Source of the DNA: a virus
Lineage: Duplodnaviria; Heunggongvirae; Uroviricota; Caudoviricetes
Reading direction: 5' to 3' (one strand)
Virus record (IMG/VR): IMGVR_UViG_2521172732_000010
Length of the DNA: 45,810 nucleotides
Made by a program: the position numbers and the translations under genes. Under the pieces are notes generated by a model. The model saw only the letters and a list, made by a program, of their open reading frames with translations. It was not told the DNA's origin and did not search any database. Of the stretch, positions 1,648 through 45,810 are shown piece after piece; positions within the stretch are counted from its first letter, which is position 1; each line of letters opens with the position of its first letter.

Positions 1648-2704
1648 GGCTTTGTTGAATAAATCGAACTTTTGCTGAGTTGAAGGATCAGATCACGCAT
1701 CTTCCCGACAACGCAGACCGTTCCGTGGCAAAGCAAAAGTTCAAAATCACCAACTGGCCCACCTACAATAAAGCCCTCATCAACCGTGGCTCCATAACTT
1801 TCTGGCTGGATGATGAAGCTATTCAGGCCTGGTATGAATCAGCAACACCTTCTTCACGAGGCAGACCTCAGCGCTATTCTGACCTTGCCATCACGACTGT
1901 GCTGGTCATTAAACGCGTATTCAGGCTGACCCTGCGCGCTGCGCAGGGCTTTATTGATTCCATTTTTTCTCTGATGAACGTTCCGCTACGCTGCCCGGAT
2001 TACAGCTGTGTCAGCAGGCGGGCAAAGTCGGTTAACGTCAGTTTCAAAACGCCCACCCGGGGTGAAATCGCACACCTGGTAATTGATTCCACCGGGCTGA
2101 AAGTCTTCGGTGAAGGCGAGTGGAAAGTCAAAAAGCATGGCCAGGAACGCCGCCGTATCTGGCGTAAGCTGCATCTCGCCGTTGACAGTAAAACACATGA
2201 AATCATCTGCGCTGACCTGTCGCTGAACAACGTTACGGACTCAGAGGCCTTCCCCGGGTTAATCCGGCAAACCCACCGGAAAATCAGGTCAGCCGCCGCC
2301 GATGGCGCTTACGACACCCGGCTCTGTCACGATGAACTGCGGCGTAAGAAAATCAGCGCGCTTATCCCTCCCCGAAAAGGTGCGGGTTACTGGCCCGGTG
2401 AATATGCAGACCGTAACCGTGCAGTGGCTAATCAGCGAATGACCGGGAGTAATGCGCGGTGGAAATGGACAACAGATTACAACCGTCGCTCGATAGCGGA
2501 AACGGCGATGTACCGGGTAAAACAGCTGTTCGGGGGTTCACTGACGCTGCGTGACTACGATGGTCAGGTTGCGGAGGCTATGGCCCTGGTACGAGCGCTG
2601 AACAAAATGACGAAAGCAGGTATGCCTGAAAGCGTGCGTATTGCCTGAAAACACAACCCGCTACGGGGGAGACTTACCCGAAATCTGATTTATTCAACAA
2701 AGCC
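1648..2704 (+). mobile_element. IS903-type insertion sequence (IS5 family), 1057 bp
   Basis: Terminal inverted repeats ggctttgttgaataaatcg at 1648 and its reverse complement ending at 2704; flanked by perfect 9-bp direct repeat gttctgcct at 1639-1647 and 2705-2713; internal transposase ORF. Confidence 0.9.
1680..2648 (+). CDS. IS903-family DDE transposase (start codon uncertain)
   Basis: 322-aa ORF filling the IS; NWPTYNKALINRGSITFW motif region typical of IS903-group transposases as I recall them. Confidence 0.85.
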   Translation: MKDQITHLPDNADRSVAKQKFKITNWPTYNKALINRGSITFWLDDEAIQAWYESATPSSRGRPQRYSDLAITTVLVIKRVFRLTLRAAQGFIDSIFSLMNVPLRCPDYSCVSRRAKSVNVSFKTPTRGEIAHLVIDSTGLKVFGEGEWKVKKHGQERRRIWRKLHLAVDSKTHEIICADLSLNNVTDSEAFPGLIRQTHRKIRSAAADGAYDTRLCHDELRRKKISALIPPRKGAGYWPGEYADRNRAVANQRMTGSNARWKWTTDYNRRSIAETAMYRVKQLFGGSLTLRDYDGQVAEAMALVRALNKMTKAGMPESVRIA

Positions 2705-2861
2705 GTTCTGCCTTTTCGGATGTAGTGAACTTTGTTGTGGGTAGAACGCAGGATTTTGCAGGGAGTGCCGTGGTGGTCGACGTACCAGGTGTTAGGAAAA
2801 ATGATTCTGAACATTTTTACACCTCAGTTGGACGATGTTGAAATTTACTGCTTTGAGGCCA

Positions 2862-3080
2862 TCACAGCCCCCATTGTTTGTTCTTAAGTTCGATCTCCTC
2901 CTGGCAACTTGCACAAGTCCGACAACCCTGAACGGCCAGGCGTCTTCGTTCATCTATCGGATCGCCACACTCACAACAATGAGTGGCAGATATAGCCTGG
3001 TGGTTCAGGCGGCGCATTTTTATTGCTGTGTTGCGCTGTAATTCTTCAATTTCTGATGCTGAATCAATGATGTCTGCCAT
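2862..3080 (-). CDS. TraR/DksA-family C4 zinc-finger protein
   Basis: 72-aa ORF with two Cys pairs (CCECG ... CRTCASC) typical of phage TraR-like zinc fingers. Confidence 0.6.
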   Translation of the reverse strand: MADIIDSASEIEELQRNTAIKMRRLNHQAISATHCCECGDPIDERRRLAVQGCRTCASCQEEIELKNKQWGL

Positions 3081-3178
3081 CTTTCATTAATCCCTGAATT
3101 GTTGGTTAATACGCTTGAGGGTGAATGCGAATAATAAAAAAGGAGCCTGTAGCTCCATGATGATTTTGTTTTTCATGT

Positions 3179-3394
3179 TCACCGTTCCTTAAAGACGCCG
3201 TTTAACATGCCGATCGCCAGGCTTAAATGAGTCGGTGTGAATCCCATCAGCGTTACCGTTTCGCGGTGCTTTTTCAGTACGCTACGGCAAATGTCATCGA
3301 CGTTTTTATCCGGAAACTGCGGTCTGGCTTTTTTGATTTCAGAATTAGCCTGACGGGCAATACTGCGAAGGGCGTTTTCTTGCTGAGGTGTCAT
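3179..3394 (-). CDS. small early-left (delta region) hypothetical protein, in the position of lambda orf61
   Basis: ORF in the pL operon between the zinc-finger ORF and orf63; start chosen at internal ATG (MTPQQ...). Confidence 0.5.
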   Translation of the reverse strand: MTPQQENALRSIARQANSEIKKARPQFPDKNVDDICRSVLKKHRETVTLMGFTPTHLSLAIGMLNGVFKER

Positions 3395-3470
3395 TGAACA
3401 AGTCCCATGTCGGCAAGCATAAGCACACAGAATATGAAGCCCGCTGCCAGAAAAATGCATTCAGTGGTTG

Positions 3471-3662
3471 TCATACCTGGTCTCTCTCATCTGCTTCTGC
3501 TTTCGCCACCATCATTTCCAGCTTTTGTGAAAGGGATGTGGCTAACGTATGAAATTCTTCGTCTGTTTCTGCTGGTATTGGCACAAACCTGACTCCAATT
3601 TGAGCAAGGCTATGTGCCATCTCAATGCTCGTTCTTAACTCAACAGGAGATGCTTTGTGCAT
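3471..3662 (-). CDS. lambda Orf63-like protein
   Basis: 63-aa [26 protein letters not shown]... matching my recollection of lambda orf63. Confidence 0.75.
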   Translation of the reverse strand: MHKASPVELRTSIEMAHSLAQIGVRFVPIPAETDEEFHTLATSLSQKLEMMVAKAEADERDQV

Positions 3663-3817
3663 ACAGCCCCTCGTTTATTATTTATCTCCTCAGCCAGCCG
3701 CTGGGCTTTCAGTGGATTTTGGATAACAGAAAGACCGGGAAATACCCAGCCTCGCTTTGTAACGGAGTAGACGAAAGTGATCGCACCTACCCGGATATTA
3801 TCGTGAGGATGCTTCAT
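3635..3817 (-). CDS. lambda Orf60a-like protein
   Basis: 60 codons from [17 protein letters not shown]..., overlapping orf63 and abutting exo as in lambda. Confidence 0.7.
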
Positions 3818-4494
3818 CGCCATTGCTCCCCAAATACAAAACCAATTTCAGCCAGTGCTTCGTCCATTTTTTCGATGAACTCCGGCACCATCTCGTCAAA
3901 ACTTGCCATGTAATTTTCATCCCGCTCAACCACGACATAATGCAGGCCTTCACGCTTCATTCGTGGGTCATAGTTGGCAAAGTACCAGGCATCTTTTCGC
4001 GTCACCCACATGCTGTACTGCACCTGGGCCATGTAAGCCGACTTTATGGCCTCGAAACCACCGAGCCGGAATTTCATGAAATCCCGGGAGGTAAACGGGC
4101 ATTTCAGCTCAAGGCCATTGCCGTCACTGCATAAACCATCGGGAGAGCAGGCGGTGCGCATACTTTCGTCGCGATAGATGATCGGGGATTCAGTAACATT
4201 CACGCCGGAAGTGAATTCAAACAGGGTTCTGGCGTCGTTCTCGTACCGTTTTCCCCAGGCCAGCGCCTTAGCATTAACTTCCGGAGCCACACCGGTGCAA
4301 ACCTCAGCCAGCAGGGTGTGGAAGTAGGACATTTTCATGTCAGGCCACTTCTTTCCTGAGCGGGGCTTTGCTATCACGTTGTGAACTTCTGAAGCGGTGA
4401 TGACGCCGAGCCGTAATTTGTGCCATGCATCATCCCCCTGTTCGACAGCTCTCACGTCGATCCCGGTACGCTGCAGGATAATGTCCGGTGTCAT
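3814..4494 (-). CDS. exo: Red exonuclease (lambda Exo)
   Basis: 226-aa [39 protein letters not shown]..., matches lambda Exo. Confidence 0.95.
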
Positions 4495-5276
4495 GTAGCC
4501 ACCTTCTGCTCAGTGGCTTTCTGTTTCAGGAATCCAAGAGCTTTCACTGCTTCGGCTTGTGTCAGTTCTGACGATGCGCGAATGTCGCGGCGAAATATCT
4601 GGGAACAGAGCGGCAATAAGTCGTCATCCCATGTTTTATCCAGGGCGATTAGCAGAGTGTTAATCTCCTGCATGGTTTCATCGTTAACCGGAGTGATGTC
4701 GCGTTCCAGCTGACGTTCTGCAGTGTATGCAGTATTTTCGACAATGCGCTCGGCTTCATCCTTGTCATAGATACCAGCAAATCCGAAGGCGAGACGGGCA
4801 CACTGAATCATGGCTTTATGCCGTAACATCCGTTTGGGATGCGACTGCCACGGTCCGGTGATTTCTCTGCCTTCGCGGGTTTTGAATGGTTCGCGGCGGC
4901 ATTCATCCATCCATTCGGTAACGCAGATCGGATGATTACGGTCCTTGCGGTAAATCCGGCATGTACAGGATTCGTTGTCCTGCTCAAAGTCCATGCCATC
5001 AAACTGCTGGTTTTCATTGATGATGCGGGACCAGCCATCAACGCCCACCACCGGAACGATGCCGTTCTGCTTATCAGGGAAGGCGTAAATTTCTTTCGTC
5101 CACGGATTAAGGCCGTACTGGTTGGCGACGATCAACAATGCGATGAACTGCGCATCGCTGGCATCGCCTTTAAATGCCGTCTGGCGAAGAGTGGTGATCA
5201 GTTCCTGTGGGTCGACAGAATCCATGCCGACACGTTCAGCCAGCTTCCCTGCCAGCGTTGCGAGTGCTGTACTCAT
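4491..5276 (-). CDS. bet: Red recombinase Beta
   Basis: 261-aa [40 protein letters not shown]..., matches lambda Bet; 4-nt overlap with exo. Confidence 0.95.
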
Positions 5277-5281
5277 CCGTT

Positions 5282-5578
5282 TTATACCTCTGAATCAATA
5301 TCAACCTGATGGTGAGCAATGGTTTCAACCATGTACCGGATGTGTTCTGCCATGCGCTCCTGAAACTCAACATCGTCATCAAACGCACGGGTAATGGCTT
5401 TTTTGCTGGCCCCGTGGCGTTGCAAATGATCGATGCATAGCGATTCAAACAGGTGCTGGGGCAGGCCTTTTTCCATGTCGTCTGCCAGTTCTGCCTCTTT
5501 CTCTTCACGGGCGATCTGCTGGTAGTGACGCGCCCAGCTCTGAGCCTCAAGACGATCCTGAATGTAATAAGCGTTCAT
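5282..5578 (-). CDS. gam: Gam, RecBCD inhibitor (short 98-aa form intact; long-form N-terminal extension out of frame)
   Basis: [21 protein letters not shown]... matches lambda Gam; upstream [18 protein letters not shown] start at 5697 is in a different frame. Confidence 0.9.
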
Positions 5579-5651
5579 GGCTGAACTCCTGAAATAGCTG
5601 TGAAAATATCGCCCGCGAAATGCCGGGCTGATTAGGAAAACAGGAAAGGGG

Positions 5652-5795
5652 TTAGTGAATGCTTTTGCTTGATCTCAGTTTCAGTATTAATATCCATTTT
5701 TTATAAGCGTCGACGGCTTCACGAAACATCTTTTCATCGCCAATAAAAGTGGCGATAGTGAATTTAGTCTGGATAGCCATAAGTGTTTGATCCAT
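5652..5795 (-). CDS. kil: Kil (host-killing, FtsZ inhibitor)
   Basis: 47 codons [47 protein letters not shown]. Confidence 0.9.
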
Positions 5796-5928
5796 TCTTT
5801 GGGACTCCTGGCTGATTAAGTATGTCGATAAGGCGTTTCCATCCGTCACGTAATTTACGGGTGATTCGTTCAAGTAAAGATTCGGAAGGGCAGCCAGCAA
5901 CAGGCCACCCTGCAATGGCATATTGCAT
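5764..5928 (-). CDS. cIII: CIII (FtsH inhibitor)
   Basis: 54 codons MQYAIAGWPVAGCPSESLLERITRKLRDGW... ; overlaps kil by 32 nt as in lambda; ORF is below the size cut-off of the supplied track. Confidence 0.85.
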   Translation of the reverse strand: MQYAIAGWPVAGCPSESLLERITRKLRDGWKRLIDILNQPGVPKNGSNTYGYPD

Positions 5929-6000
5929 GGTGTGCTCCTTATTTATACATAACGAAAAACGCCTCGAGTGAAGCGTAATTGGTATGCGGTAACGCTGCGC

Positions 6001-6369
6001 TCAGGCGGCCTTGATAGTCATATCATCTGAATCAAATATTCCTGATGTATCGATATCGGTAATTCTTATTCCTTCACTACCATCCATTGGAGGCCATCCT
6101 TCCTGACCATTTCCATCATTCCAGTCGAACTCACACACAACACCATATGCATTTAAGTCGCTTGAAATTGCTATAAGCAGAGCATGTTGCGCCAGCATGA
6201 TTAATACAGCATTTAATACAGATCCGTGTTTATTGAGTCGGTATTCAGAGTCTGACCAGAAATTATTAATCTGGTGAAGTTTTTCCTCTGTCATTACGTC
6301 ATGGTCAATTTCAATTTCTATTGATGCTTTCCAGTCGTAATCAATGATGTATTTTTTGATGTTTGACAT
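6001..6369 (-). CDS. ea10: Ea10-like early protein
   Basis: 122-aa ORF MSNIKKYIIDYDWKASIEIEIDHDV... matching my recollection of lambda Ea10. Confidence 0.8.
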   Translation of the reverse strand: MSNIKKYIIDYDWKASIEIEIDHDVMTEEKLHQINNFWSDSEYRLNKHGSVLNAVLIMLAQHALLIAISSDLNAYGVVCEFDWNDGNGQEGWPPMDGSEGIRITDIDTSGIFDSDDMTIKAA

Positions 6370-6551
6370 CTATTCATATCCTCATAGATAAAAAATCGCC
6401 CTCACACTGGAGGGCAAAGAAGATTTCCAATAATCAGAACAAGTCGGCTCCTGTTTAGTTACGAGCGACATTGCTCCGTGTATTCACTCGTTGGAATGAA
6501 TACACAGTGCAGTGTTTATTCTGTTATTTATGCCAAAAATAAAGGCCACTA

Positions 6552-6752
6552 TCAGGCAGCTTTGTTGTTCTGTTTACCAAGTTCTCTGGCAATCATTGCC
6601 GTCGTTCGTATTGCCCATTTATCGACATATTTCCCATCTTCCATTACAGGAAACATTTCTTCAGGCTTAACCATGCATTCCGATTGCAGCTTGCATCCAT
6701 TGCATCGTTTGAATTGTCCACACCATTGATTTGTATCAATAGTCGTAGTCAT
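6552..6752 (-). CDS. ral: Ral (restriction alleviation)
   Basis: 66-aa ORF MTTTIDTNQWCGQFKRCNGCKLQSECMVKPEEMFPV... Confidence 0.9.
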   Translation of the reverse strand: MTTTIDTNQWCGQFKRCNGCKLQSECMVKPEEMFPVMEDGKYVDKWAIRTTAMIARELGKQNNKAA

Positions 6753-6965
6753 ACGGATAGTCCTGGTATTGTTCCATCACATCTTGAGGATGCTCTTCGA
6801 ACTCTTCAAATTCTTCTTCCATATATCACCTTAAATAGTGGATTGCGGTAGTAAAGATTGTGCCTGTCTTTTAACCACATCAGGCTCGGTGGTTCTCGTG
6901 TACCCCTACAACGAGAAATCGGATAAACTCTATTCACCCCTACAGAGAGCAAAAGAGAAACGCCG

Positions 6966-7547
6966 ATGAACAACTCATGGTGGCAGGAACTAATGCATTT
7001 TTTCCTGCAAGGAATGACACTTAAACAGTTGATTCATATGCTAATCATCCTGATCATATTGATTATTGTTATGCCGGTAAGCGTGAAAGAATGGATAAAC
7101 CTGCATAATCCAGAAATCCTTCCTCATTACTGGATGTATTACATCCTGTTGTTTTGCGTTAGCTATGTGCTTAACGGCGTTGTTAATTCCGCTTATCACG
7201 CTGTGACTGAAAGAATTGAGGTATTCGCTGCTCAGAAGCGCAAATCTAAAGAAGAAAAATATGTGCAAGATTTGTTTGATTCGTTAACTCTTGGAGAAAG
7301 AGCGTATTTGGCATTCGCTGTAGCCGCTAATAACCAGCTACAAACGGAAAAGGGAGCTCATGAATCAATTTCATTGCTCAAAAAAGGACTCCTCGTTCGA
7401 AGGCCTCCTGCTGTTGGATATCCTGATACCGACCGTTTCGTTATCCCTGAAAGCTATAGACATGAGTGCTACATTAGGTTTGCCAGGAAGGCAGACAGCC
7501 TTATGGATGAACTTATCGCTCAGGATAAGCATGGCAAAAACAAGTAA
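6966..7547 (+). CDS. sieB: superinfection exclusion protein B
   Basis: 193-aa membrane protein MNNSWWQELMHFFLQGMTLKQLIHMLIILIILIIVMPV...; between ral and N on the opposite strand. Confidence 0.85.
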   Translation: MNNSWWQELMHFFLQGMTLKQLIHMLIILIILIIVMPVSVKEWINLHNPEILPHYWMYYILLFCVSYVLNGVVNSAYHAVTERIEVFAAQKRKSKEEKYVQDLFDSLTLGERAYLAFAVAANNQLQTEKGAHESISLLKKGLLVRRPPAVGYPDTDRFVIPESYRHECYIRFARKADSLMDELIAQDKHGKNK

Positions 7548-7563
7548 TTAGCAAATGAATTTA

Positions 7564-7836
7564 TCATCTCGCCGTCAATTGTTTTGATTTCCGGTAGCCT
7601 GCCGCGTAAACGGCTACGTTTGGCAGGCAAATACTTCCACTGCATTCATCTGCCTTCTTGCAGCGAAGGCTTCCGAGTGATGCTGCTTTGTCTGCTCTGA
7701 CGCAACCAGAGAGCTTTAGCGCAATTTTTCGCGCCAGTCGCTGTTCTTGCATTGCCTGCTCACGTTGAGCCTGTCTGCGTGCTCTGCGGCGATTTCTGGC
7801 GTTATCGTCAGCCAGATATGTAATGACTACTGCCAT
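7564..7836 (-). CDS. N: N-type transcription antiterminator (P22 gp24-like)
   Basis: Arginine-rich motif NARNRRRARRQAQREQ near the N-terminus, C-terminus ...YAAGYRKSKQLTAR; immediately downstream of nutL/pL; start taken at MAVVITY. Confidence 0.8.
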   Translation of the reverse strand: MAVVITYLADDNARNRRRARRQAQREQAMQEQRLARKIALKLSGCVRADKAASLGSLRCKKADECSGSICLPNVAVYAAGYRKSKQLTAR

Positions 7837-7943
7837 GTTGACCTCCGATGATTGACTTTGGCGGTGACGCGCCGGGTGCATATCTTTCGGTTGCCGTCAT
7901 GCAGCTGCACTTCACGTCACCCCAAAGCCAACTACTCTTTGGT

Positions 7944-7985
7944 TCCCGCATTTCGGCGGGACAATCCCATCAATGTTAAAGAGCC
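7944..7985 (-). promoter_or_regulatory. nutL (boxA ggctctttaaca plus boxB hairpin)
   Basis: Minus-strand boxA followed by hairpin tcccgccgaaatgcggga; the identical boxB occurs at nutR. Confidence 0.75.
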
Positions 7986-8024
7986 TGCCAATCTGTTCCG
8001 TTTGGCTACCAGCGTCCTGCTGAT

Positions 8025-8105
8025 GACTTAAATTTAAGATTTCTTTAATTGTTGGTTAAGGTGGTTTTGAAGAAAACTTAAATTTATTGCGAAGTTTAAG
8101 TTTTG
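8025..8105 (-). promoter_or_regulatory. OL operator repeats and pL region
   Basis: Repeated ACTTAAATTTAAG / TTAAG-type half-sites resembling P22 c2 operators, upstream of N on the minus strand. Confidence 0.55.
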
Positions 8106-8120
8106 CTTTGATTTTTAAAG

Positions 8121-8146
8121 GAAAGAAAAAAGGGGCGAATGCCCCT
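8121..8146 (-). terminator. intrinsic terminator after the repressor gene
   Basis: Minus-strand hairpin ggggcattcgcccc followed by a T-rich tail (tttttctttc), directly after the cI stop. Confidence 0.6.
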
Positions 8147-8796
8147 TATGGAAGGTTTGCTATTTTTGCATCGACAACTACACCGATGATTTTGCAGTTC
8201 CCGTTGATCTCAATCATCGGATATTGTGGGTTAAGTGGTTTTAGAAACCTTCTGCCAGCATCAATAACTAACTTCTTGAAAGTTGCCTCGTTTTCTCCTT
8301 CGAGCTTTGCCACTACCAGCTTCCCATTACGAGGTTCTACTTCAGGATCGACTAGTATTATCATCCCTTCCGGGATGCTAAGACCGGCTGGAGCCGTCAT
8401 CGAATCACCCTTTACGTCCAGCCAAAACGAATCTTCTGAACAATCTACGGTTGTATCGTACCAGTTATCTATTGCACGCTTATGATATGGCTCTACAGCT
8501 TCCATCCAACATCCTGCGCTTACCCAACTAATTAGAGGATACGAACCTCTTGGATCATGCCTGCTGTGATAGGCAATGTTTGAAAGACTATCTTCTCCTT
8601 TCAACAAGTAATCAGGGGAGCACTGTAAAGCCTTGGCTAAAGCCAATAGGTTTTCGCCATTGGGCTCAGTTTCAGAACGCTCCCATTGGGAAATAGCAAC
8701 ATTAGACACGCCAACCATCTTGCCAAGGGCAGCCTGCCTAATCTTAAGTTCTTTTCTGCGAGCGCGAATACGCTCACCCATCAGTTGTGTATTCAT
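8146..8796 (-). CDS. cI: prophage repressor, P22 C2 type (LexA-like HTH plus S24 peptidase domain)
   Basis: 216-aa ORF MNTQLMGERIRARRKELKIRQAALGKMVGVSNVAISQWERSE... matching my recollection of P22 C2. Confidence 0.9.
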   Translation of the reverse strand: MNTQLMGERIRARRKELKIRQAALGKMVGVSNVAISQWERSETEPNGENLLALAKALQCSPDYLLKGEDSLSNIAYHSRHDPRGSYPLISWVSAGCWMEAVEPYHKRAIDNWYDTTVDCSEDSFWLDVKGDSMTAPAGLSIPEGMIILVDPEVEPRNGKLVVAKLEGENEATFKKLVIDAGRRFLKPLNPQYPMIEINGNCKIIGVVVDAKIANLP

Positions 8797-8863
8797 AGTT
8801 AAGACATCTTAAATAAACTTGACTTAAGATTCCTTTGATAGATAATTTAAGTATTCTTTAATT
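8797..8863. promoter_or_regulatory. OR operators (three 18-bp sites) with divergent pRM/pR
   Basis: Three sites close to ATTTAAGATATCTTAAAT at 8797-8814, about 8822-8839 and 8845-8862, between divergent cI and cro. Confidence 0.7.
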
Positions 8864-8876
8864 TCGGAGCGAGTCT

Positions 8877-9062
8877 ATGTACAAGAAAGATGTTATCGAC
8901 CACTTCGGAACCCAGCGTGCGGTAGCTAAAGCGTTAGGCATTAGCGATGCAGCAGTCTCTCAGTGGAAGGAAGTCATCCCAGAGAAAGACGCCTATCGAC
9001 TGGAAGTCGTTACAGCTGGCGCCCTGAAGTATCAAGAAAGTGCTTATCGCAAAGCGGCATAA
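8877..9062 (+). CDS. cro: Cro repressor (P22 Cro type)
   Basis: 61-aa HTH ORF MYKKDVIDHFGTQRAVAKALGISDAAVSQWKE... Confidence 0.85.
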   Translation: MYKKDVIDHFGTQRAVAKALGISDAAVSQWKEVIPEKDAYRLEVVTAGALKYQESAYRKAA

Positions 9063-9068
9063 GCAAAT

Positions 9069-9113
9069 TGCTCTTTAACAGTCATGGTCCTTATTCCCGC
9101 CGAAATGCGGGAA
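9069..9113 (+). promoter_or_regulatory. nutR (boxA tgctctttaaca plus boxB hairpin)
   Basis: boxA at 9069-9080 and hairpin ttcccgccgaaatgcgggaa at 9094-9113, just downstream of cro. Confidence 0.75.
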
Positions 9114-9170
9114 TACAACGCGCATCAGTTGGTGCGTATAACTTCTTATTTGTTAAGGAAATACTTACAT

Positions 9171-29388: not shown

Positions 29389-31942
29389 ACCGGTAGGCGA
29401 TCTGGTCGTTGATTTAAGTCTGGATGCGGCCAGATTTGACGAGCAGATGGCCAGAGTCAGGCGTCATTTTTCCGGTACGGAAAGTGATGCGAAAAAAACA
29501 GCGGCAGTCGTTGAACAGTCGCTGAGGCGACAGGCACTGGCTGCACAGAAAGCGGGGATTTCCGTCGGGCAGTATAAAGCTGCCATGCGTATGCTGCCTG
29601 CGCAGTTCACCGACGTGGCCACGCAGCTTGCAGGCGGGCAAAGTCCGTGGCTGATCCTGCTGCAACAGGGTGGTCAGGTGAAGGACTCCTTCGGCGGGAT
29701 GATCCCCATGTTCAGGGGGCTTGCCGGTGCGATCACCCTGCCGATGGTCGGGGCCACCTCGCTGGCGGTGGCGACCGGTGCGCTGGCGTATGCCTGGTAT
29801 CAGGGCAACTCAACCCTGTCCGATTTCAACAAAACGCTGGTCCTTTCCGGCAATCAGTCGGGTCTGACGGCAGATCGTATGCTGGTCCTGTCCAGAGCCG
29901 GGCAGGCGGCAGGGCTGACGTTTAACCAGACCAGCGAGTCACTCAGCGCACTGGTTAAGGCGGGAGTAAGCGGTGAGGCTCAGATTGCATCCATCAGCCA
30001 GAGTGTGGCGCGTTTCTCCTCTGCATCCGGCGTGGAGGTGGACAAGGTCGCTGAAGCCTTCGGGAAGCTGACCACAGACCCGACGTCAGGGCTGACAGCG
30101 ATGGCACGCCAGTTCCATAACGTGACGGCGGAGCAGATTGCGTATGTTGCTCAGTTGCAGCGTTCCGGCGATGAAGCCGGGGCATTGCAGGCGGCGAACG
30201 AGGCCGCGACGAAAGGATTTGATGACCAGACCCGCCGCCTGAAAGAGAACATGGGTACGCTGGAGACCTGGGCAGACAGGACAGCACGGGCATTCAAATC
30301 CATGTGGGATGCGGTGCTGGATATTGGTCGTCCTGATACCGCTCAGGAGATGCTGATTAAGGCAGAGGCTGCGTTTAAGAAAGCGGACGACATCTGGAGT
30401 CTGCGCAAGGATGATTATTTTGTTAACGATGAAGCGCGGGCGCGTTACTGGGATGATCGTGAAAAGGCCCGTCTTGCGCTTGAAGCCGCGAGAAAGAAGG
30501 CTGAACAGCAGAGTCAACAGGACAAAAATGCGCAGCAGCAGAGCGATACTGAAGCGTCACGGCTGAAATATACCGAAGAGGCGCAGAAAGCTTACGAACG
30601 GCTGCAGACGCCGCTGGAGAAATATACCGCCCGTCAGGAAGAACTGAACAAGGCACTGAAGGACGGGAAAATTCTGCAGGCAGATTACAACACGCTGATG
30701 GCGGCGGCGAAAAAGGACTATGAAGCGACGCTGAAAAAGCCGAAACAGTCCGGCGTGAAGGTGTCTGCGGGCGATCGTCAGGAAGACAGTGCTCATGCTG
30801 CCCTGCTGACGCTTCAGGCTGAACTCCGGACGCTGGAGAAGCATGCCGGAGCAAATGAGAAAATCAGCCAGCAGCGCCGGGATTTGTGGAAGGCGGAGAG
30901 TCAGTTCGCGGTACTGGAGGAGGCGGCGCAACGTCGCCAGCTGTCTGCACAGGAGAAATCCCTGCTGGCGCATAAAGATGAGACGCTGGAGTACAAACGC
31001 CAGCTGGCTGCACTTGGCGACAAGGTTACGTATCAGGAGCGCCTGAACGCGCTGGCGCAGCAGGCGGATAAATTCGCACAGCAGCAACGGGCAAAACGGG
31101 CCGCCATTGATGCGAAAAGCCGGGGACTGACTGACCGGCAGGCAGAACGGGAAGCCACGGAACAGCGCCTGAAGGAACAGTATGGCGATAATCCGCTGGC
31201 GCTGAATAACGTCATGTCAGAGCAGAAAAAGACCTGGGCGGCTGAAGACCAGCTTCGCGGGAGCTGGATGGCAGGCCTGAAGTCCGGCTGGAGTGAGTGG
31301 GAAGAGAGCGCCACGGACAGTATGTCGCAGGTAAAAAGTGCAGCCACGCAGACCTTTGATGGTATTGCACAGAATATGGCGGCGATGCTGACCGGCAGTG
31401 AGCAGAACTGGCGCAGCTTCACCCGTTCCGTGCTGTCCATGATGACAGAAATTCTGCTTAAGCAGGCAATGGTGGGGATTGTCGGGAGTATCGGCAGCGC
31501 CATTGGCGGGGCTGTTGGTGGCGGCGCATCCGCGTCAGGCGGTACAGCCATTCAGGCCGCTGCGGCGAAATTCCATTTTGCAACCGGAGGATTTACGGGA
31601 ACCGGCGGCAAATATGAGCCAGCGGGGATTGTTCACCGTGGTGAATTTGTCTTCACGAAGGAGGCAACCAGCCGGATTGGCGTGGGAAATCTCTACCGGC
31701 TGATGCGCGGCTATGCCACCGGCGGTTATGTCGGTACACCGGGCAGCATGGCGGACAGCCGCTCGCAGGCGTCCGGGACGTTTGAGCAGAATAACCATGT
31801 GGTGATTAACAACGACGGCACGAACGGTCAGATAGGGCCACAGGCGCTGAAGGCGGTTTATGACGTAGCCCGTAAGGCGGCAATGGATGTTGTGACCGGG
31901 CAGATGCGCGATGGTGGTCTGTTCTCCGGAGGTGGACGATGA
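29381..31942 (+). CDS. H: tail tape measure protein H
   Basis: 853-aa ORF, coiled-coil rich, matching lambda gpH. Confidence 0.95.
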   Translation: MAEPVGDLVVDLSLDAARFDEQMARVRRHFSGTESDAKKTAAVVEQSLRRQALAAQKAGISVGQYKAAMRMLPAQFTDVATQLAGGQSPWLILLQQGGQVKDSFGGMIPMFRGLAGAITLPMVGATSLAVATGALAYAWYQGNSTLSDFNKTLVLSGNQSGLTADRMLVLSRAGQAAGLTFNQTSESLSALVKAGVSGEAQIASISQSVARFSSASGVEVDKVAEAFGKLTTDPTSGLTAMARQFHNVTAEQIAYVAQLQRSGDEAGALQAANEAATKGFDDQTRRLKENMGTLETWADRTARAFKSMWDAVLDIGRPDTAQEMLIKAEAAFKKADDIWSLRKDDYFVNDEARARYWDDREKARLALEAARKKAEQQSQQDKNAQQQSDTEASRLKYTEEAQKAYERLQTPLEKYTARQEELNKALKDGKILQADYNTLMAAAKKDYEATLKKPKQSGVKVSAGDRQEDSAHAALLTLQAELRTLEKHAGANEKISQQRRDLWKAESQFAVLEEAAQRRQLSAQEKSLLAHKDETLEYKRQLAALGDKVTYQERLNALAQQADKFAQQQRAKRAAIDAKSRGLTDRQAEREATEQRLKEQYGDNPLALNNVMSEQKKTWAAEDQLRGSWMAGLKSGWSEWEESATDSMSQVKSAATQTFDGIAQNMAAMLTGSEQNWRSFTRSVLSMMTEILLKQAMVGIVGSIGSAIGGAVGGGASASGGTAIQAAAAKFHFATGGFTGTGGKYEPAGIVHRGEFVFTKEATSRIGVGNLYRLMRGYATGGYVGTPGSMADSRSQASGTFEQNNHVVINNDGTNGQIGPQALKAVYDVARKAAMDVVTGQMRDGGLFSGGGR

Positions 31943-32268
31943 AAACCTTCCGCTGGAAAGTGAAACCCGGTATGGATGTGGCTTCGGCCCCTTCCGTAAG
32001 AAAGGTGCGCTTTGGTGATGGCTATTCCCAGCGAGCGCCTGCCGGGCTGAATGCCGACCTGAAAACGTACAGCGTGACGCTTTCTGTTCCCCGTTGGGAG
32101 GCCACGGCGCTTGAGTCGTTTCTGGCTGAGCACGGGGGCTGGAAAGCCTTTCTGTGGACGCCGCCTTATGAGTGGCGGCAGATAAAGGTGACCTGCGCAA
32201 AATGGTCGTCGCGGGTCAGTATGCTGCGTGTTGAGTTCAGCGCAGAGTTTGAACAGGTGGTGAACTGA
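31939..32268 (+). CDS. M: tail tip protein M
   Basis: 109-aa ORF MKTFRWKVKPGMDVASAPSVRKVRFGDGYSQRAPAG... Confidence 0.9.
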   Translation: MKTFRWKVKPGMDVASAPSVRKVRFGDGYSQRAPAGLNADLKTYSVTLSVPRWEATALESFLAEHGGWKAFLWTPPYEWRQIKVTCAKWSSRVSMLRVEFSAEFEQVVN

Positions 32269-32965
32269 TGCAGGATATCCGGCAGGAAACACTGAATGAA
32301 TGCACCCGTGCGGAGCAGTCGGCCAGCGTGGTGCTTTGGGAAATCGATCTGACAGAGGTCGGTGGAGAACGTTATTTTTCTGTAATGAGCAGAACGAAAA
32401 AGGTGAGCCGGTCACCTGGCAGGGGCGACAGTATCAGCCGTATCCCATTCAGGGGAGTGGTTTTGAACTGAATGGCAAAGGCACCAGTACGCGCCCCACG
32501 CTGACGGTTTCTAACCTGTACGGTATGGTCACCGGGATGGCGGAAGATCTGCAGAGTCTGGTCGGCGGAACGGTGGTCCGGCGTAAGGTTTACGCCCGTT
32601 TTCTGGATGCGGTGAACTTCGTCAACGGAAACAGTGACGCCGATCCGGAGCAGGAGGTGATCAGCCGCTGGCGCATTGAGCAGTGCAGCGAACTGAGCGC
32701 GGTGAGTGCCTCTTTTGTACTGTCCACGCCGACGGAAACGGACGGCGCTGTTTTTCCGGGACGTATCATGCTGGCCAACACCTGCACCTGGACCTATCGC
32801 GGCGATGAGTGCGGTTATCACGGTCCGGCGGTCGCGGATGAATATGACCAGCCAACGTCCGATATCACGAAGGATAAATGCAGCAAATGCCTGAGCGGTT
32901 GTAAGTTCCGCAATAACGTCGGCAACTTTGGCGGCTTCCTTTCCATTAACAAACTTTCGCAGTAA
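32268..32965 (+). pseudogene. L: tail tip protein L, frame-disrupted as sequenced
   Basis: MQDIRQETLNECTRAEQSASVVLWEIDLTEVGGERYF in one frame, then FCNEQNEKGEPVTWQGRQYQ... to the stop in the -1 frame; junction is a T-run (32375-32379). Confidence 0.8.
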
Positions 32966-32970
32966 ATCCC

Positions 32971-33714
32971 ATGACAGAGACAGAATCAGCGATTCTGGCG
33001 CACGCCCGGCGATGTGCGCCAGCGGAGTCGTGCGGCTTCGTGGTGAGAACGCCGGAGGAGGAAAGATATTTTCCCTGCGTGAATATCTCCGGTGAACCGG
33101 AGGATTATTTCCGGATGTCGCCGGAGGACTGGCTGCAGGCCAAAATGCAGGGTGAGATTGTGGCGCTGGTCCACAGTCACCCCGGTGGTCTGCCCTGGCT
33201 GAGTGAGGCCGACCGGCGGCTGCAGGTGCAGAGTGATTTGCCGTGGTGGCTGGTCTGCCGGGGGGCGATTCACAAGTTCCGCTGTGTGCCGCATCTCACC
33301 GGGCGGCGCTTTGAGCACGGGGTGACGGACTGTTACACGCTGTTCCGGGATGCTTACCATCTGGCGGGAATTGAGATGCCGGATTTTCATCGCGGGGATG
33401 ACTGGTGGCGTAACGGTCAGAATCTCTATCTTGACAATATGGAGGCGACTGGTTTTTACCGTGTCGCACTGACAGAGGCGCAGCCTGGCGACGTGCTGCT
33501 GTGCTGCTTTGGTTCATCGGTGCCGAATCATGCCGCTATTTACTGTGGTGACGGCGAGCTGCTGCACCATATTCCTGAACAACTGAGTAAACGAGAGAGG
33601 TATACCGACAAATGGCAGCGACGCACACACTCCCTCTGGAGTCACCGGGCATGGCGCGCATCTGCCTTTACGGGGATTTGCAACGATTTGGCCGCCGCAT
33701 CGACCTTCGTGTGA
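32971..33714 (+). CDS. K: tail tip protein K (NlpC/P60-JAB type)
   Basis: 247-aa ORF MTETESAILAHARRCAPAESCGFVVRTPEEERYFPC... Confidence 0.9.
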   Translation: MTETESAILAHARRCAPAESCGFVVRTPEEERYFPCVNISGEPEDYFRMSPEDWLQAKMQGEIVALVHSHPGGLPWLSEADRRLQVQSDLPWWLVCRGAIHKFRCVPHLTGRRFEHGVTDCYTLFRDAYHLAGIEMPDFHRGDDWWRNGQNLYLDNMEATGFYRVALTEAQPGDVLLCCFGSSVPNHAAIYCGDGELLHHIPEQLSKRERYTDKWQRRTHSLWSHRAWRASAFTGICNDLAAASTFV

Positions 33715-38472: not shown

Positions 38473-41368
38473 ATGGCAGTAAAGATTTCAGGTGTACTGA
38501 AAGACGGCACAGGAAAACCGGTACAGAACTGCATAATCCAGCTGAAAGCAAAACGTAACAGCACCACGGTGGTGGTGAACACGCTGGCCTCAGAAAATCC
38601 GGATGAAGCCGGGCGTTACAGTATGGACGTTGAGTACGGTCAGTACAGCGTTATTCTGTTGGTGGAAGGGTTCCCGCCGTCACATGCCGGGACCATCACC
38701 GTGTATGAAGATTCCCGACCCGGTACGCTGAATGATTTTCTCGGTGCCATGACGGAGGATGATGCCCGTCCGGAGGCATTGCGACGTTTTGAACTGATGG
38801 TGGAAGAGGTGGCGCGTAACGCGTCCGCAGTGGCACAGAACACGGCAGCCGCGAAGAAGTCAGCCAGTGATGCCAGCACATCTGCCAGTGAGGCGGCAAC
38901 CCATGCGACTGATGCTGCAGATTCAGCACGTGCAGCCAGCACGTCAGCCGGACAGGCCGCGACGTCGGCTCAGGAGGCTTTTTCCAGCGCAGGAACGGCA
39001 TCAGCAAAAGCCTCTGAGGCATCAAAAAGTGCTGCCGCTGCAGAGTCCTCAAAAAGCGCGGCGGCTACCAGTGCCGGTGCGGCGAAAACGTCAGAAACGA
39101 ATGCGGCAGCGTCACAACAATCAGCAGCCACTTCTGCATCCACCGCGACCACGAAAGCGTCAGAAGCAGCCACTTCAGCACGGGATGCGTCGGCTTCAAA
39201 AGAGGCGGCAAAATCATCAGAAACGAACGCAGCCTCGAGCGCCAGCAGCGCAACTTCCTCGGCAACGGCGGCAGCAAATTCTGCGAAGGAGGCAAAAACG
39301 TCCGAGACGAACGCTAAGTCTTCTGAAACGGCAGCGGGACAGAGCGCCTCAGCTGCGGCAGGCTCAAAAACAGCGGCTGCGTCGTCTGCCAGTGCCGCGT
39401 CAACAAGTGCCGGGCAGGCCTCAGCCAGTGCCACCGCCGCCGGAAAATCGGCAGAAAGTGCTGCATCGTCTGCTTCAACAGCCACAACGAATGCTGGCGA
39501 AGCCGCTGTACAGGCCAGCGCAGCAGCGAGGTCTGCTTCCGCAGCGAAGACATCCGAGACGAACGCGAAAGCGTCGGAAACCAGCGCAGAATCCTCAAAA
39601 ACGGCTGCCGCATCATCCGCCAGTTCGGCGGCGTCATCGGCATCATCTGCGTCTGCTTCAAAAGATGAGGCGACCAGACAGGCGTCAGCAGCGAAGGGCA
39701 GCGCCACGACGGCATCCACGAAGGCGACAGAGGCAGCTGGTAGTGCGACGGCAGCAGCTCAGAGCAAAAGTACGGCGGAATCTGCAGCAACGCGCGCTGA
39801 GACAGCGGCAAAAACGGGCAGAGGATATTGCATCCGCCGTGGCGCTTGAGGATGCGAGCACGACGAAAAAGGGGATAGTACAGCTCAGCAGCGCGACCAA
39901 CAGCACGTCTGAAACGCTGGCGGCAACGCCAAAGGCAGTAAAAGCAGCCAATGACAATGCTGAGAAACGTCTGCAGAAAGATCAGAACGGTGCGGATATC
40001 CCTGGCAAAGACACCTTTACGAAAAATATTGGTGCCTGCCGTGCCTTCGGTGGGTCAGTAAGCACAACAACAGGAGACTGGACGACTGCACAGTTTATCG
40101 AGTGGCTGGATTCTCAGGGAGCATTTAACCATCCATACTGGATGTGCAAGGGTTCCTGGTCTTATGGCAATAATAAAATCATTACTGATACTGGTTGCGG
40201 TAATATTCATCTCGCCGGAGCTGTCATTGAAGTAATGGGGATAAAGTCAGCGATGACGATCCGCATTACCACACCGACCACCTCCACTGGTGGTGGAACA
40301 ACTAACGCCCAGTTTACCTATATTAATCACGGAACAGATTATTCACCTGGCTGGCGAAGGGACTATAACTCCAGAAATAAGCCAACGGCATCAGAGATCG
40401 GGGCGTTACCGTCAGGTGGAACAGCAGTATCATCAGTTAATCTGGCTTCAAAAGGTCGGGTAACTGCGCTTACAGACAATACGCAGGGGGCAACAGGTCT
40501 TGAGTTATACGAGGTGTATAACAACGGATATCCAACAGCGTATGGAAATATTATTCACCTGAAAGGGATGACAGCCGTTGGCGAAGGTGAGTTACTCATC
40601 GGCTGGAGTGGTACAAGCGGTGCTCATGCTCCGGCATTTATTCGTTCACGACGGGATACGACCGACGCAAACTGGTCGCCGTGGGCGCAGCTTTACACCT
40701 CAGCTCATCCTCCTGCAGAGTTTTATCCAGTCGGTGCACCAATCCCGTGGCCATCAGATACCGTTCCGTCTGGCTATGCCCTGATGCAGGGGCAGACTTT
40801 TGACAAATCTGCTTACCCGAAACTTGCAGCCGCTTATCCGTCAGGCGTGATCCCTGATATGCGTGGCTGGACGATTAAGGGCAAACCTGCCAGTGGTCGG
40901 GCCGTATTGTCTCAGGAACAGGACGGTATTAAATCGCACACCCACAGCGCCAGCGCATCCAGTACGGATTTGGGTACGAAAACCACATCGTCGTTTGATT
41001 ACGGCACTAAATCCACGAATAACACCGGGGCACATACACACAGTGTGAGCGGTACAGCCGCAAGTGCCGGAAACCATACTCATAGTGTCACAGGCGCATC
41101 AGCAGTCAGCCAGTGGTCACAAAATGGGTCAGTACATAAGGTAGTGTCTGCGGCCAGTGTGAATACAAGTGCTGCAGGAGCGCACACTCATAGTGTCAGC
41201 GGCACAGCTGCATCTGCAGGTGCTCACGCACATACTGTCGGTATTGGTGCTCATACGCACTCTGTTGCGATTGGTTCACATGGACACACCATCACCGTTA
41301 ACGCTGCGGGTAACGCGGAAAACACCGTCAAAAACATCGCATTTAACTACATTGTGAGGCTTGCATAA
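38473..41368 (+). pseudogene. stf: side tail fibre Stf, frame-disrupted as sequenced
   Basis: N-terminal frame MAVKISGVLKDGTGKPVQNC... ends at 39849; the +1 frame continues ...[17 protein letters not shown]... to the Stf C-terminus ...[15 protein letters not shown]; junction is an A-run (39810-39814). Confidence 0.75.
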
Positions 41369-45504: not shown

Positions 45505-45810
45505 ATGCTGCCGCAGCATAGCGATATTGAAATAGCCTGGTATGCTGCGATACAGCAGGAGCCGAATGGCTGGAAGACCGTCACCACACAGTTCTACATC
45601 CAGGAATTCAGTGAGTATATTGCGCCACTGCAGGATGCTGTAGATCTGGAAATCGCAACGGAGGAAGAAAGATCGTTGCTGGAGGCATGGAATAAATATC
45701 GGGTATTGTTGAATCGTGTTGATACATCAGTAGCTCTGGGTATGAAGCTGTTTGTAACTCATGTTACAGTAATGGCTATTACTATCTCGAAGGTGCAAAA
45801 TGTATATTGA
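45505..45810 (+). pseudogene. truncated tail fibre assembly (tfa) C-terminal remnant
   Basis: Contains ...[37 protein letters not shown], about 90 percent identical at DNA level to 41788-41907 of tfa, but lacks the tfa N-terminal region and has a divergent tail. Confidence 0.6.
45610..45729 (+). repeat. about 120-bp direct repeat of tfa 41788-41907
   Basis: agtgag(c/t)atattgcgccact(t/g)caggatgctgtagatctggaaatcgcaacggaggaagaaa... present at both positions in the same orientation. Confidence 0.85.

What the first reader, a model, noticed from the sequence alone, without database searches (positions are those of the whole stretch)
32268..32965. Tail tip gene L frameshifted at a T-run
The two ORFs 32268-32471 and 32300-32965 together reconstruct full-length lambda gpL (...GGERYF | FCNEQNEKGEPV...). 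The junction is a T-run of five at 32375-32379, consistent with loss of one T. L is essential for tail tip assembly.
Basis: partly seen in the sequence, partly recalled or inferred. Interest (0 to 1): 0.45.

Follow-up and report, generated by a model that had tools for sequence, protein, structure and literature searches.

The report
Probable sequencing miscall splitting tail gene L
The lambda-type tail-tip gene L in this E. coli prophage really is split by a T-run one base too short, but the evidence points to a base-counting error in a 2012 draft genome rather than a real mutation, so it is ordinary.

Summary
ORF1 (32268-32471) and ORF2 (32300-32965) are the two halves of lambda-type gene L, split at a five-T run (32375-32379). 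Adding one T restores a 232-aa protein, 229/232 identical to lambda gpL. The biological reading is probably wrong. The window is a prophage from the 2012 draft of E. coli DEC15E (AIHS01000015.1). Every close relative has six T, including one assembly that differs by a single SNP over 15.4 kb. Of 7,986 matching places in complete E. coli genomes, one has five T, in a visibly error-ridden assembly. The same break occurs in two other drafts that appear to belong to the same project (DEC4A, DEC10F), in different prophages. The window has four more one-base homopolymer changes seen only in these drafts, whereas its other variants checked (three SNPs, a 4-bp deletion in Q, a capsid stop codon, an IS903-like insertion) recur in independent assemblies. 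An independent read-based assembly of the same strain (Logan SRR124125) matches the window at 7,880 positions and differs only at one homopolymer, where it sides with the finished sister genome. I put about 0.84 on an assembly artefact. If it is real, it is a private lesion in a prophage already dead. Reads at the L site itself could not be examined.

The parts
32268..32965 (+). Lambda-type tail-tip hub gene L as deposited, interrupted by a -1 frame change
   Evidence: It lies between M (31939-32268) and K (32971-3714 equivalent, 32971-33714), as in lambda.
32375..32379 (+). T5 homopolymer. It is T6 in lambda, in finished strains 15A and EDL933, and in all independent assemblies of this prophage lineage.
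32268..32471 (+). ORF1: 37 native gpL residues plus 30 out-of-frame residues (67 aa)
   Evidence: In the large collection this exact product occurs on only one other contig, from a different prophage.
32300..32965 (+). ORF2 (221 aa). Its first ~26 residues are out-of-frame read-through of the L 5' part, and the rest is gpL residues 38-232, including the four Fe-S cysteines.
   Evidence: The exact product is deposited as EHU93452.1/EHY20052.1 from DEC15E and DEC4A.
8126..8131 (+). A6 run (A7 in finished 15A). This is a sister homopolymer change of the same kind. The read-based Logan assembly of the same strain has A7.
14582..14587 (+). T6 run (T7 in 15A and in independent assemblies L028 and L029); private to this draft
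21602..21606 (+). A5 run (A6 elsewhere) that truncates the gpW-like head-tail joining gene to 55 aa; private to this draft within its lineage
   Evidence: The same truncated product recurs in very noisy assemblies.
39810..39814 (+). A5 run (A4 elsewhere) that splits the side tail-fibre gene. It is also present in the draft I take to be DEC15A, but not in the finished genome of strain 15A or in other assemblies.

Best explanation
The five-T run is most likely a homopolymer-length miscall in the deposited consensus of a 2012 draft assembly (E. coli DEC15E, contig AIHS01000015.1). In the bacterium, gene L probably has six T and encodes an ordinary intact 232-aa gpL-type tail-tip hub protein. Shown here: the break exists in the deposit; it is private to that deposit; it belongs to a set of one-base homopolymer changes seen only in these drafts; and at one member of that set an independent assembly of the same strain's reads disagrees with the deposit. 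Inferred: that the L site behaves like the site that could be checked.
For: (1) Source: the window is 100% identical to AIHS01000015.1. (2) Private allele: finished sister strain 15A is identical across L except for the missing T. At least 24 contigs carry an identical J protein; the four other places shown (L022, L023, L025, L026) all have T6 and an intact 232-aa L, and the places not shown were grouped with them as having the same neighbouring proteins. L023 differs from the window by one SNP in 15.4 kb. (3) Rarity: of 7,986 places matching a 79-nt junction probe in 4,116 complete E. coli genomes, one has T5. That record has nearly all its phage genes annotated as frameshifted. (4) Project-specific recurrence: T5 also occurs in the DEC4A and DEC10F drafts, in different prophages, while the nearest finished genomes have T6. 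(5) Pattern within the window: against 15A there are five one-base homopolymer indels, four of them shortening A/T runs of 6-7, and a further one-base insertion just outside the window. The window has only 43 A/T runs of 6 or more. The four of these indels that could be checked against other assemblies (14582, 21602, 32375, 39810) are confined to DEC drafts. By contrast, the 4-bp Q deletion, the capsid stop, the IS junction and SNPs 5996, 7008, 8062 and 45777 are each corroborated by independent assemblies. (6) Same strain, two assemblies: the draft with zero mismatches to finished 15A over 12.9 kb carries the A5 fibre insertion that the finished genome lacks. (7) Read-level proxy: Logan's assembly of run SRR124125 equals window 2676-10555 at every position, including the IS junction and three strain-specific SNPs, except that it has A7 where the deposit has A6. 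(8) The exact 67-aa and 221-aa L fragments are not on record for that Logan assembly.
Against: No reads or read-based contig covering position 32375 of this strain could be retrieved, so the case at the L site is by analogy and population comparison. The prophage is already non-functional (Q deletion, capsid stop codon, IS insertion), so a real further frameshift would carry no cost, and T6 runs are natural slippage hotspots. The absence of the L fragments from the Logan assembly could also mean that region was not assembled there. The sequencing platform of the draft could not be confirmed because the announcement paper is not held. Equating 'strain 15A' with DEC15A, and AIHO with the DEC15A draft, is inferred from serotype, accession order and zero mismatches; no record states it.
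Confidence: 0.84

Rival explanations
1. The T5 run is a real, very recent one-base deletion by replication slippage, private to strain DEC15E. It inactivates L in a prophage that is already decaying. The product would be a 67-aa fragment with 37 native residues and no functional hub protein, so no tail tip could assemble.
For: The prophage has real inactivating lesions shared with independent assemblies: a 4-bp deletion in Q, an in-frame TAA in the major capsid gene and an IS903-like insertion. Selection on L is therefore absent. Mononucleotide runs are known slippage hotspots (established knowledge).
Against: In window 9552-43743, the changes private to this draft comprise four one-base homopolymer indels against two SNPs, far from the substitution-dominated spectrum expected of real divergence. 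The same site is broken in two unrelated drafts that appear to be from the same project. One sister homopolymer change is contradicted by a read-based assembly of the same strain, and another by the finished genome of what appears to be the same strain as a sister draft. At the observed density of about one indel per 8.5 kb, a whole genome would carry hundreds of frameshifts.
Confidence: 0.14
2. The two-frame arrangement is functional. Full-length gpL is made from the T5 allele by -1 ribosomal slippage of tRNA-Phe on the U-run, or by transcriptional slippage, in the way the neighbouring G and T genes are expressed.
For: A -1 shift of the P-site tRNA from UUU (32376-32378) to UUU (32375-32377) would re-pair perfectly and give exactly the wild-type sequence ...YFFC... 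(read). A genuine programmed -1 site (GGGAAAG, 28948-28954) exists in the same operon.
Against: The heptamer U UUU UCU does not fit X XXY YYZ, because the A-site UCU would have to re-pair on UUC. The 91 nt downstream fold no better than shuffled sequence (z = -0.69). The arrangement is not conserved: lambda and essentially all relatives have a single uninterrupted frame. Five U is, from general knowledge, too short for efficient transcriptional slippage.
Confidence: 0.01

Closest known systems
Bacteriophage lambda gpL (tail-tip hub protein; Pfam PF05100 Phage_tail_L)
   Same: With one T restored the protein is 232 aa and 229/232 identical to lambda gpL. It has a full-length PF05100 match, the same position between M and K, and Cys173, Cys182, Cys205 and Cys212, which coordinate the [4Fe-4S] cluster in the lambda tail-tip structure. 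In that structure gpL forms a trimer with gpJ (PMC10721106).
   Different: As deposited, the reading frame is broken after residue 37 by a T5 run in place of T6. There are three conservative or neutral substitutions relative to lambda (M95L, Y124D, S185H).
Homopolymer-length errors in draft and long-read genome assemblies
   Same: The change is a single base in a mononucleotide run and is private to one deposit. Similar changes at other runs accompany it in the same contig. The same T5 call occurs in visibly noisy assemblies: L003, L004, L033, L038, L048 and L049. One sister site is contradicted by a read-based assembly.
   Different: The contig is otherwise good. It has few errors and is nothing like the shredded long-read assemblies, so the error is not obvious from the window alone. 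The platform could not be confirmed.
Decay of defective lambdoid prophages in E. coli
   Same: The prophage sits at icd with integrase at one end, and it carries real inactivating lesions (Q 4-bp deletion, capsid ochre codon, IS insertion) shared with relatives.
   Different: Unlike those lesions, the L frameshift is not shared with any independent assembly of the lineage.
Lambda G-T programmed -1 ribosomal frameshift
   Same: Two overlapping frames in a tail-assembly operon, with the downstream part in the -1 frame.
   Different: There is no canonical slippery heptamer, no downstream structure and no conservation of the arrangement. The real G-T site is present and normal at 28948-28954.

Membership tests
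Lambda gpL / Phage_tail_L (PF05100) | Full-length match to the family profile | tested here: met
   repaired protein residues 29-230 match profile positions 1-206 of 206, E = 4.6e-101. ORF2 alone gives E = 1.8e-98.
Lambda gpL / Phage_tail_L (PF05100) | Gene order H-M-L-K-I-J in the tail operon | tested here: met
Lambda gpL / Phage_tail_L (PF05100) | Four C-terminal cysteines that coordinate the [4Fe-4S] cluster (Cys173, 182, 205, 212 in lambda) | tested here: met
   The alignment shows all four retained. Their role is taken from PMC10721106. The cluster itself is not testable here.
Lambda gpL / Phage_tail_L (PF05100) | One uninterrupted reading frame of about 232 codons | tested here: not met
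   the gene is split at 32375-32379 in the deposited sequence. This feature is met in every relative examined.
Homopolymer-length assembly error | A +/-1 change confined to a mononucleotide run, with identical flanks | tested here: met
Homopolymer-length assembly error | Allele absent from independent assemblies of the same lineage | tested here: met
   L022, L023, L025, L026; finished 15A; 1 of 7,986 places
Homopolymer-length assembly error | Other such changes in the same contig, including outside the prophage | tested here: met
   sites 8126, 14582, 21602, 39810; extra G in an HTH gene 3.6 kb beyond the window
Homopolymer-length assembly error | Raw reads or an independent read assembly of the same strain disagree with the deposit | tested here: inconclusive
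   This is met at sister site 8126 (Logan SRR124125 has A7, the deposit A6). No read-based contig covering 32375 could be retrieved; there is only the indirect absence of the 67-aa and 221-aa products.
Programmed -1 ribosomal frameshift | Slippery heptamer X XXY YYZ in the upstream frame | tested here: not met
   U UUU UCU, so the A-site codon cannot re-pair in the -1 frame.
Programmed -1 ribosomal frameshift | Two-frame arrangement conserved among homologues | tested here: not met
   relatives have a single frame.
Programmed -1 ribosomal frameshift | Downstream stimulatory RNA structure | tested here: not met
   MFE -26 kcal/mol against -23.8 +/- 3.2 for shuffles, z = -0.69.
Real prophage pseudogene | Lesion inherited, meaning seen in independent assemblies of related strains | tested here: not met
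   By contrast, the Q deletion and the capsid stop codon do meet this feature.

The most novel reading that the evidence does not exclude
The T6 run in L could be a genuine slippage hotspot that switches tail production off and on in lambdoid prophages. On this reading the T5 allele in DEC15E is real, and trace full-length gpL is still made by -1 slippage of tRNA-Phe on the U-run. The recurrence of T5 in several genetic backgrounds is compatible with this, but every instance found lies in a draft or a visibly noisy assembly.
Probability: 0.02. Interest if true: 0.35.

Novelty: not a real feature. Interest (0 to 1): 0.05.

Why it matters
It matters little for biology. If the break is real, it is one more lesion in a prophage that already lacks a working late-gene activator and capsid gene. 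Its practical value is as a caution. One-base homopolymer differences in older draft assemblies, or in unpolished long-read assemblies, produce false 'pseudogenes' in phage structural genes. Prophage-completeness calls based on such drafts will undercount intact genes. The window offers a useful internal contrast: the lesions corroborated by independent assemblies (Q deletion, capsid stop, IS insertion) are not homopolymer changes, while none of the homopolymer changes is seen in an assembly from outside the DEC drafts.

Tried and rejected
(1) The paper announcing the DEC genomes (Hazen et al. 2012, J Bacteriol 194:3026; PMC3370608) is not held. Searches for the strain names gave nothing on methods, so the sequencing platform remains unconfirmed. 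(2) The Logan contig ERR5984418_39, the only other contig with the exact 67-aa ORF1, is a different prophage (93.9% identity, 10 gap openings). It does not confirm this allele. (3) The integrase look-up meant to reach housekeeping genes left of the prophage returned only other strains. A comparison of core genes in this contig with finished 15A was therefore limited to 5.5 kb on the right, which showed one extra G. (4) Look-ups of the truncated gpW (55 aa) and of the 146-aa C-terminal L fragment list hundreds of blocks, but only the longest contigs are read, so they could not show whether SRR124125 carries them. They did show that both products recur in shredded long-read assemblies. Of the ten split L genes shown, only two are T5; the other eight have T6 and break nearby. 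(5) The A5-truncated N-terminal fibre fragment is on record nowhere, which is uninformative. (6) Programmed frameshifting was considered and rejected. (7) A mutator-strain explanation was considered. It does not explain the same A5 in the sister draft but not in the finished sister genome, nor the A7 in the read-based assembly.

Full report
**1. What is in the sequence**

The finding is accurate as a description. ORF1 (32268-32471, 67 aa) and ORF2 (32300-32965, 221 aa, -1 frame relative to ORF1) overlap around a run of exactly five T at 32375-32379. ORF1 carries 37 native residues of the lambda tail protein L (ending ...GGERYF) and then 30 out-of-frame residues. ORF2 reads the rest of L (FCNEQNEKGEPV... 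to the normal stop). Inserting one T gives a 232-codon frame. The repaired protein is 229/232 identical to gpL of lambda J02459.1 and matches Pfam PF05100 over the whole profile (E = 4.6e-101). It keeps Cys173, Cys182, Cys205 and Cys212, which hold the [4Fe-4S] cluster in the lambda tail-tip structure. In that structure gpL is a trimeric hub protein paired with gpJ (PMC10721106). The gene lies between M and K, as in lambda.

**2. Where the window comes from**

The window is a lambdoid prophage integrated next to icd.
- It is 99.97% identical to the prophage of the finished genome E. coli O111:H21 strain 15A (NZ_CP077477.1), where L is intact with six T.
- It is 100% identical to contig AIHS01000015.1 of assembly GCA_000250575.2.
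- The exact 221-aa ORF2 product is deposited under the strain names DEC15E and DEC4A.
- The source is therefore the draft genome of DEC15E, a strain of the diarrheagenic E. coli (DEC) collection. I assign AIHS to DEC15E because of its near-identity to an O111:H21 genome. The other contig, AIFK01000024.1, is 99.85% identical to O157:H7 EDL933 over 11.5 kb.

**3. All differences from the finished sister genome**

- Six substitutions.
- A 1,057-bp insertion at 1648-2704.
- A 4-bp deletion in the Q antiterminator at 14097.
- Five single-base changes in mononucleotide runs: A7 to A6 (8126), T7 to T6 (14582), A6 to A5 (21602, in the gpW-like gene), T6 to T5 (32375, in L) and A4 to A5 (39810, in the side tail-fibre gene).
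- One more single-base insertion in an HTH gene, 3.6 kb beyond the window in the same contig.

The window contains only 43 A/T runs of six or more. About one in eleven of the long runs is therefore shortened relative to the reference.

**4. Which differences do independent assemblies corroborate?**

*Corroborated, and none is a homopolymer change:*
- The 4-bp Q deletion is shared with GCA_047625145.1. That assembly differs from window 9552-31475 only by two SNPs and two homopolymer runs.
- The in-frame TAA in the capsid gene (25670-25672) is shared with finished 15A, L028 and L029.
- The SNP at 45777 is shared with GCA_049817185.1.
- The IS junction and the SNPs at 5996, 7008 and 8062 are present in a Logan assembly of sequencing run SRR124125.

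*Not corroborated:*
- None of the five homopolymer changes is seen in any assembly from outside the DEC drafts.
- For L specifically, at least 24 contigs encode a J protein identical to the window's.
  - All four other places shown (L022, L023, L025, L026) have six T and an intact 232-aa L.
  - The places not shown were grouped with these as having mostly the same neighbouring proteins.
  - L023 differs from the window by one SNP in 15.4 kb.

**5. How rare is T5 in general?**

A 79-nt probe across the junction matches 7,986 places in 4,116 of 5,426 complete E. coli genomes. Exactly one has five T. In that record nearly every gene of the same prophage is annotated 'frameshifted'.

The other T5 instances found fall into two groups:
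- **Two further DEC drafts.** DEC4A (an O157:H7 prophage) has four single-base indels in 11.5 kb relative to EDL933, one of them this T-run. DEC10F also has T5, while the nearest finished genomes all have one more base.
- **Visibly noisy contigs.** These are a Logan contig of another prophage, a metagenome contig with many split genes, and long-read assemblies in which the neighbouring genes are shredded.

Three hits within what appears to be one draft project, against one in almost 8,000 places in finished genomes, points to a technical cause.

**6. Two comparisons that approach a read-level test**

First, contig AIHO01000027.1 has zero mismatches to finished strain 15A over 12.9 kb. By accession order it should be the DEC15A draft. 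It carries the same A5 insertion in the fibre gene as the window, but the finished genome has A4 and an intact 964-aa gene. So do the DEC15C draft and three independent assemblies.

Second, the 46-aa product created by the IS insertion is on record on only one contig in the collection, from the Logan assembly of run SRR124125. That 7,881-bp contig equals window 2676-10555 at every position except the run at 8126, where it has A7, like finished 15A. An independent assembly of reads from this strain therefore contradicts the deposit at a homopolymer and nowhere else.

In addition, the exact 67-aa and 221-aa L fragments are not on record for that Logan assembly. This could also mean that the region was not assembled there.

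**7. Interpretation**

The best explanation is that T5 is a homopolymer-length error in the deposited consensus and that L is intact in the organism (confidence about 0.84). The step from 'this draft miscounts homopolymers, as shown at 8126 and probably at 39810' to 'it miscounted at 32375' is an inference. I could not retrieve reads or a read-based contig across L.

The main rival is a real private slippage deletion (about 0.14). It is plausible in principle because the prophage is already dead. Q, the late-gene antiterminator, is broken. The capsid gene has a stop at codon 233. An IS903-like element has inserted. A real deletion, however, does not explain three things:
- the near-exclusive homopolymer nature of the private changes: four indels against two SNPs in 34 kb;
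- the recurrence of the same break across unrelated drafts;
- the two direct contradictions described in section 6.

Programmed frameshifting is rejected (about 0.01). U UUU UCU is not a slippery heptamer. The downstream RNA is unremarkable (z = -0.69). No relative keeps the two-frame arrangement. The operon's genuine G-T site, GGGAAAG, is present at 28948-28954.

**8. Consequence if the break were real**

Only 37 of the 232 residues would be made in frame, lacking most of the HDI domain and the whole Fe-S domain. From established lambda genetics, L is required for tail-tip assembly, so no functional tail tip could form. In this prophage that would change nothing, because late transcription and capsid formation are already blocked.

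**9. Verdict**

- Observation: confirmed.
- Interpretation: partly supported. The anatomy is right, but the biological reality is doubtful.
- Novelty: not a real feature. At most it is an ordinary pseudogene.
- Interest: low.
- Decisive test: count T5 versus T6 in the reads of SRR124125, or Sanger-sequence the DEC15E stock.

Noticed in passing
window 1648-2704 (target duplication at 1639-1647 and 2705-2713): A 1,057-bp IS903-like (IS5-family) element lies inside a DUF4222 gene near int/xis. It has terminal inverted repeats starting GGCTTTGTTGAATAAATC, a 9-bp target duplication GTTCTGCCT and a DDE transposase. It is absent from finished strain 15A. The right-hand junction (window 2676-2714) is confirmed in the read-based Logan assembly, so the insertion is real.
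   Followed up: yes
window 14096/14097 (Q gene, about 14015-14529): A 4-bp deletion (ATTC) relative to strain 15A breaks the Q late-gene antiterminator. An independent assembly (GCA_047625145.1) shares it, so it is a real lineage lesion that should prevent late-gene expression.
   Followed up: yes
window 24974-25999 (stop at 25670-25672): The major capsid gene has an in-frame TAA at codon 233, where a more distant relative has AAA. Finished 15A (annotated 'internal stop') and two other assemblies share it, so it is real.
   Followed up: yes
window 21602-21606: An A5 run (A6 in all relatives) truncates the gpW-like head-tail joining protein to 55 aa. The identical truncated product is listed in 229 blocks of the public collection. 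The places shown are heavily fragmented assemblies, including four copies in one genome, so this run appears to be a recurrent miscall site.
   Followed up: partly
window 39810-39814: An A5 run (A4 elsewhere) splits the 964-aa side tail-fibre gene. The same insertion is in the draft that appears to be DEC15A, but not in the finished genome of strain 15A. This suggests a reproducible consensus error at this site in these drafts.
   Followed up: yes
window 8126-8131 and 14582-14587: Two intergenic runs are one base shorter than in strain 15A: A6 just downstream of the cI-like repressor gene, and T6 downstream of Q. For the first, the read-based Logan assembly of the same strain has A7.
   Followed up: yes
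L018 19600 (same contig, about 3.6 kb beyond the right end of the window): An extra G in a helix-turn-helix regulator gene near ompT is absent from finished 15A, the sister draft and an independent assembly. The gene is not called in the deposit.
   Followed up: partly
window 28948-28954: The canonical lambda G-T slippery heptamer GGGAAAG lies at the end of the G-like chaperone gene, as expected for the normal programmed -1 frameshift of this operon.
   Followed up: partly
L041-L050 (other genomes): In ten megabase-scale assemblies L is split into 65-67 aa plus 146 aa. Only two of these have T5. The other eight have T6 and must be broken at another nearby position, which I did not map.
   Followed up: no
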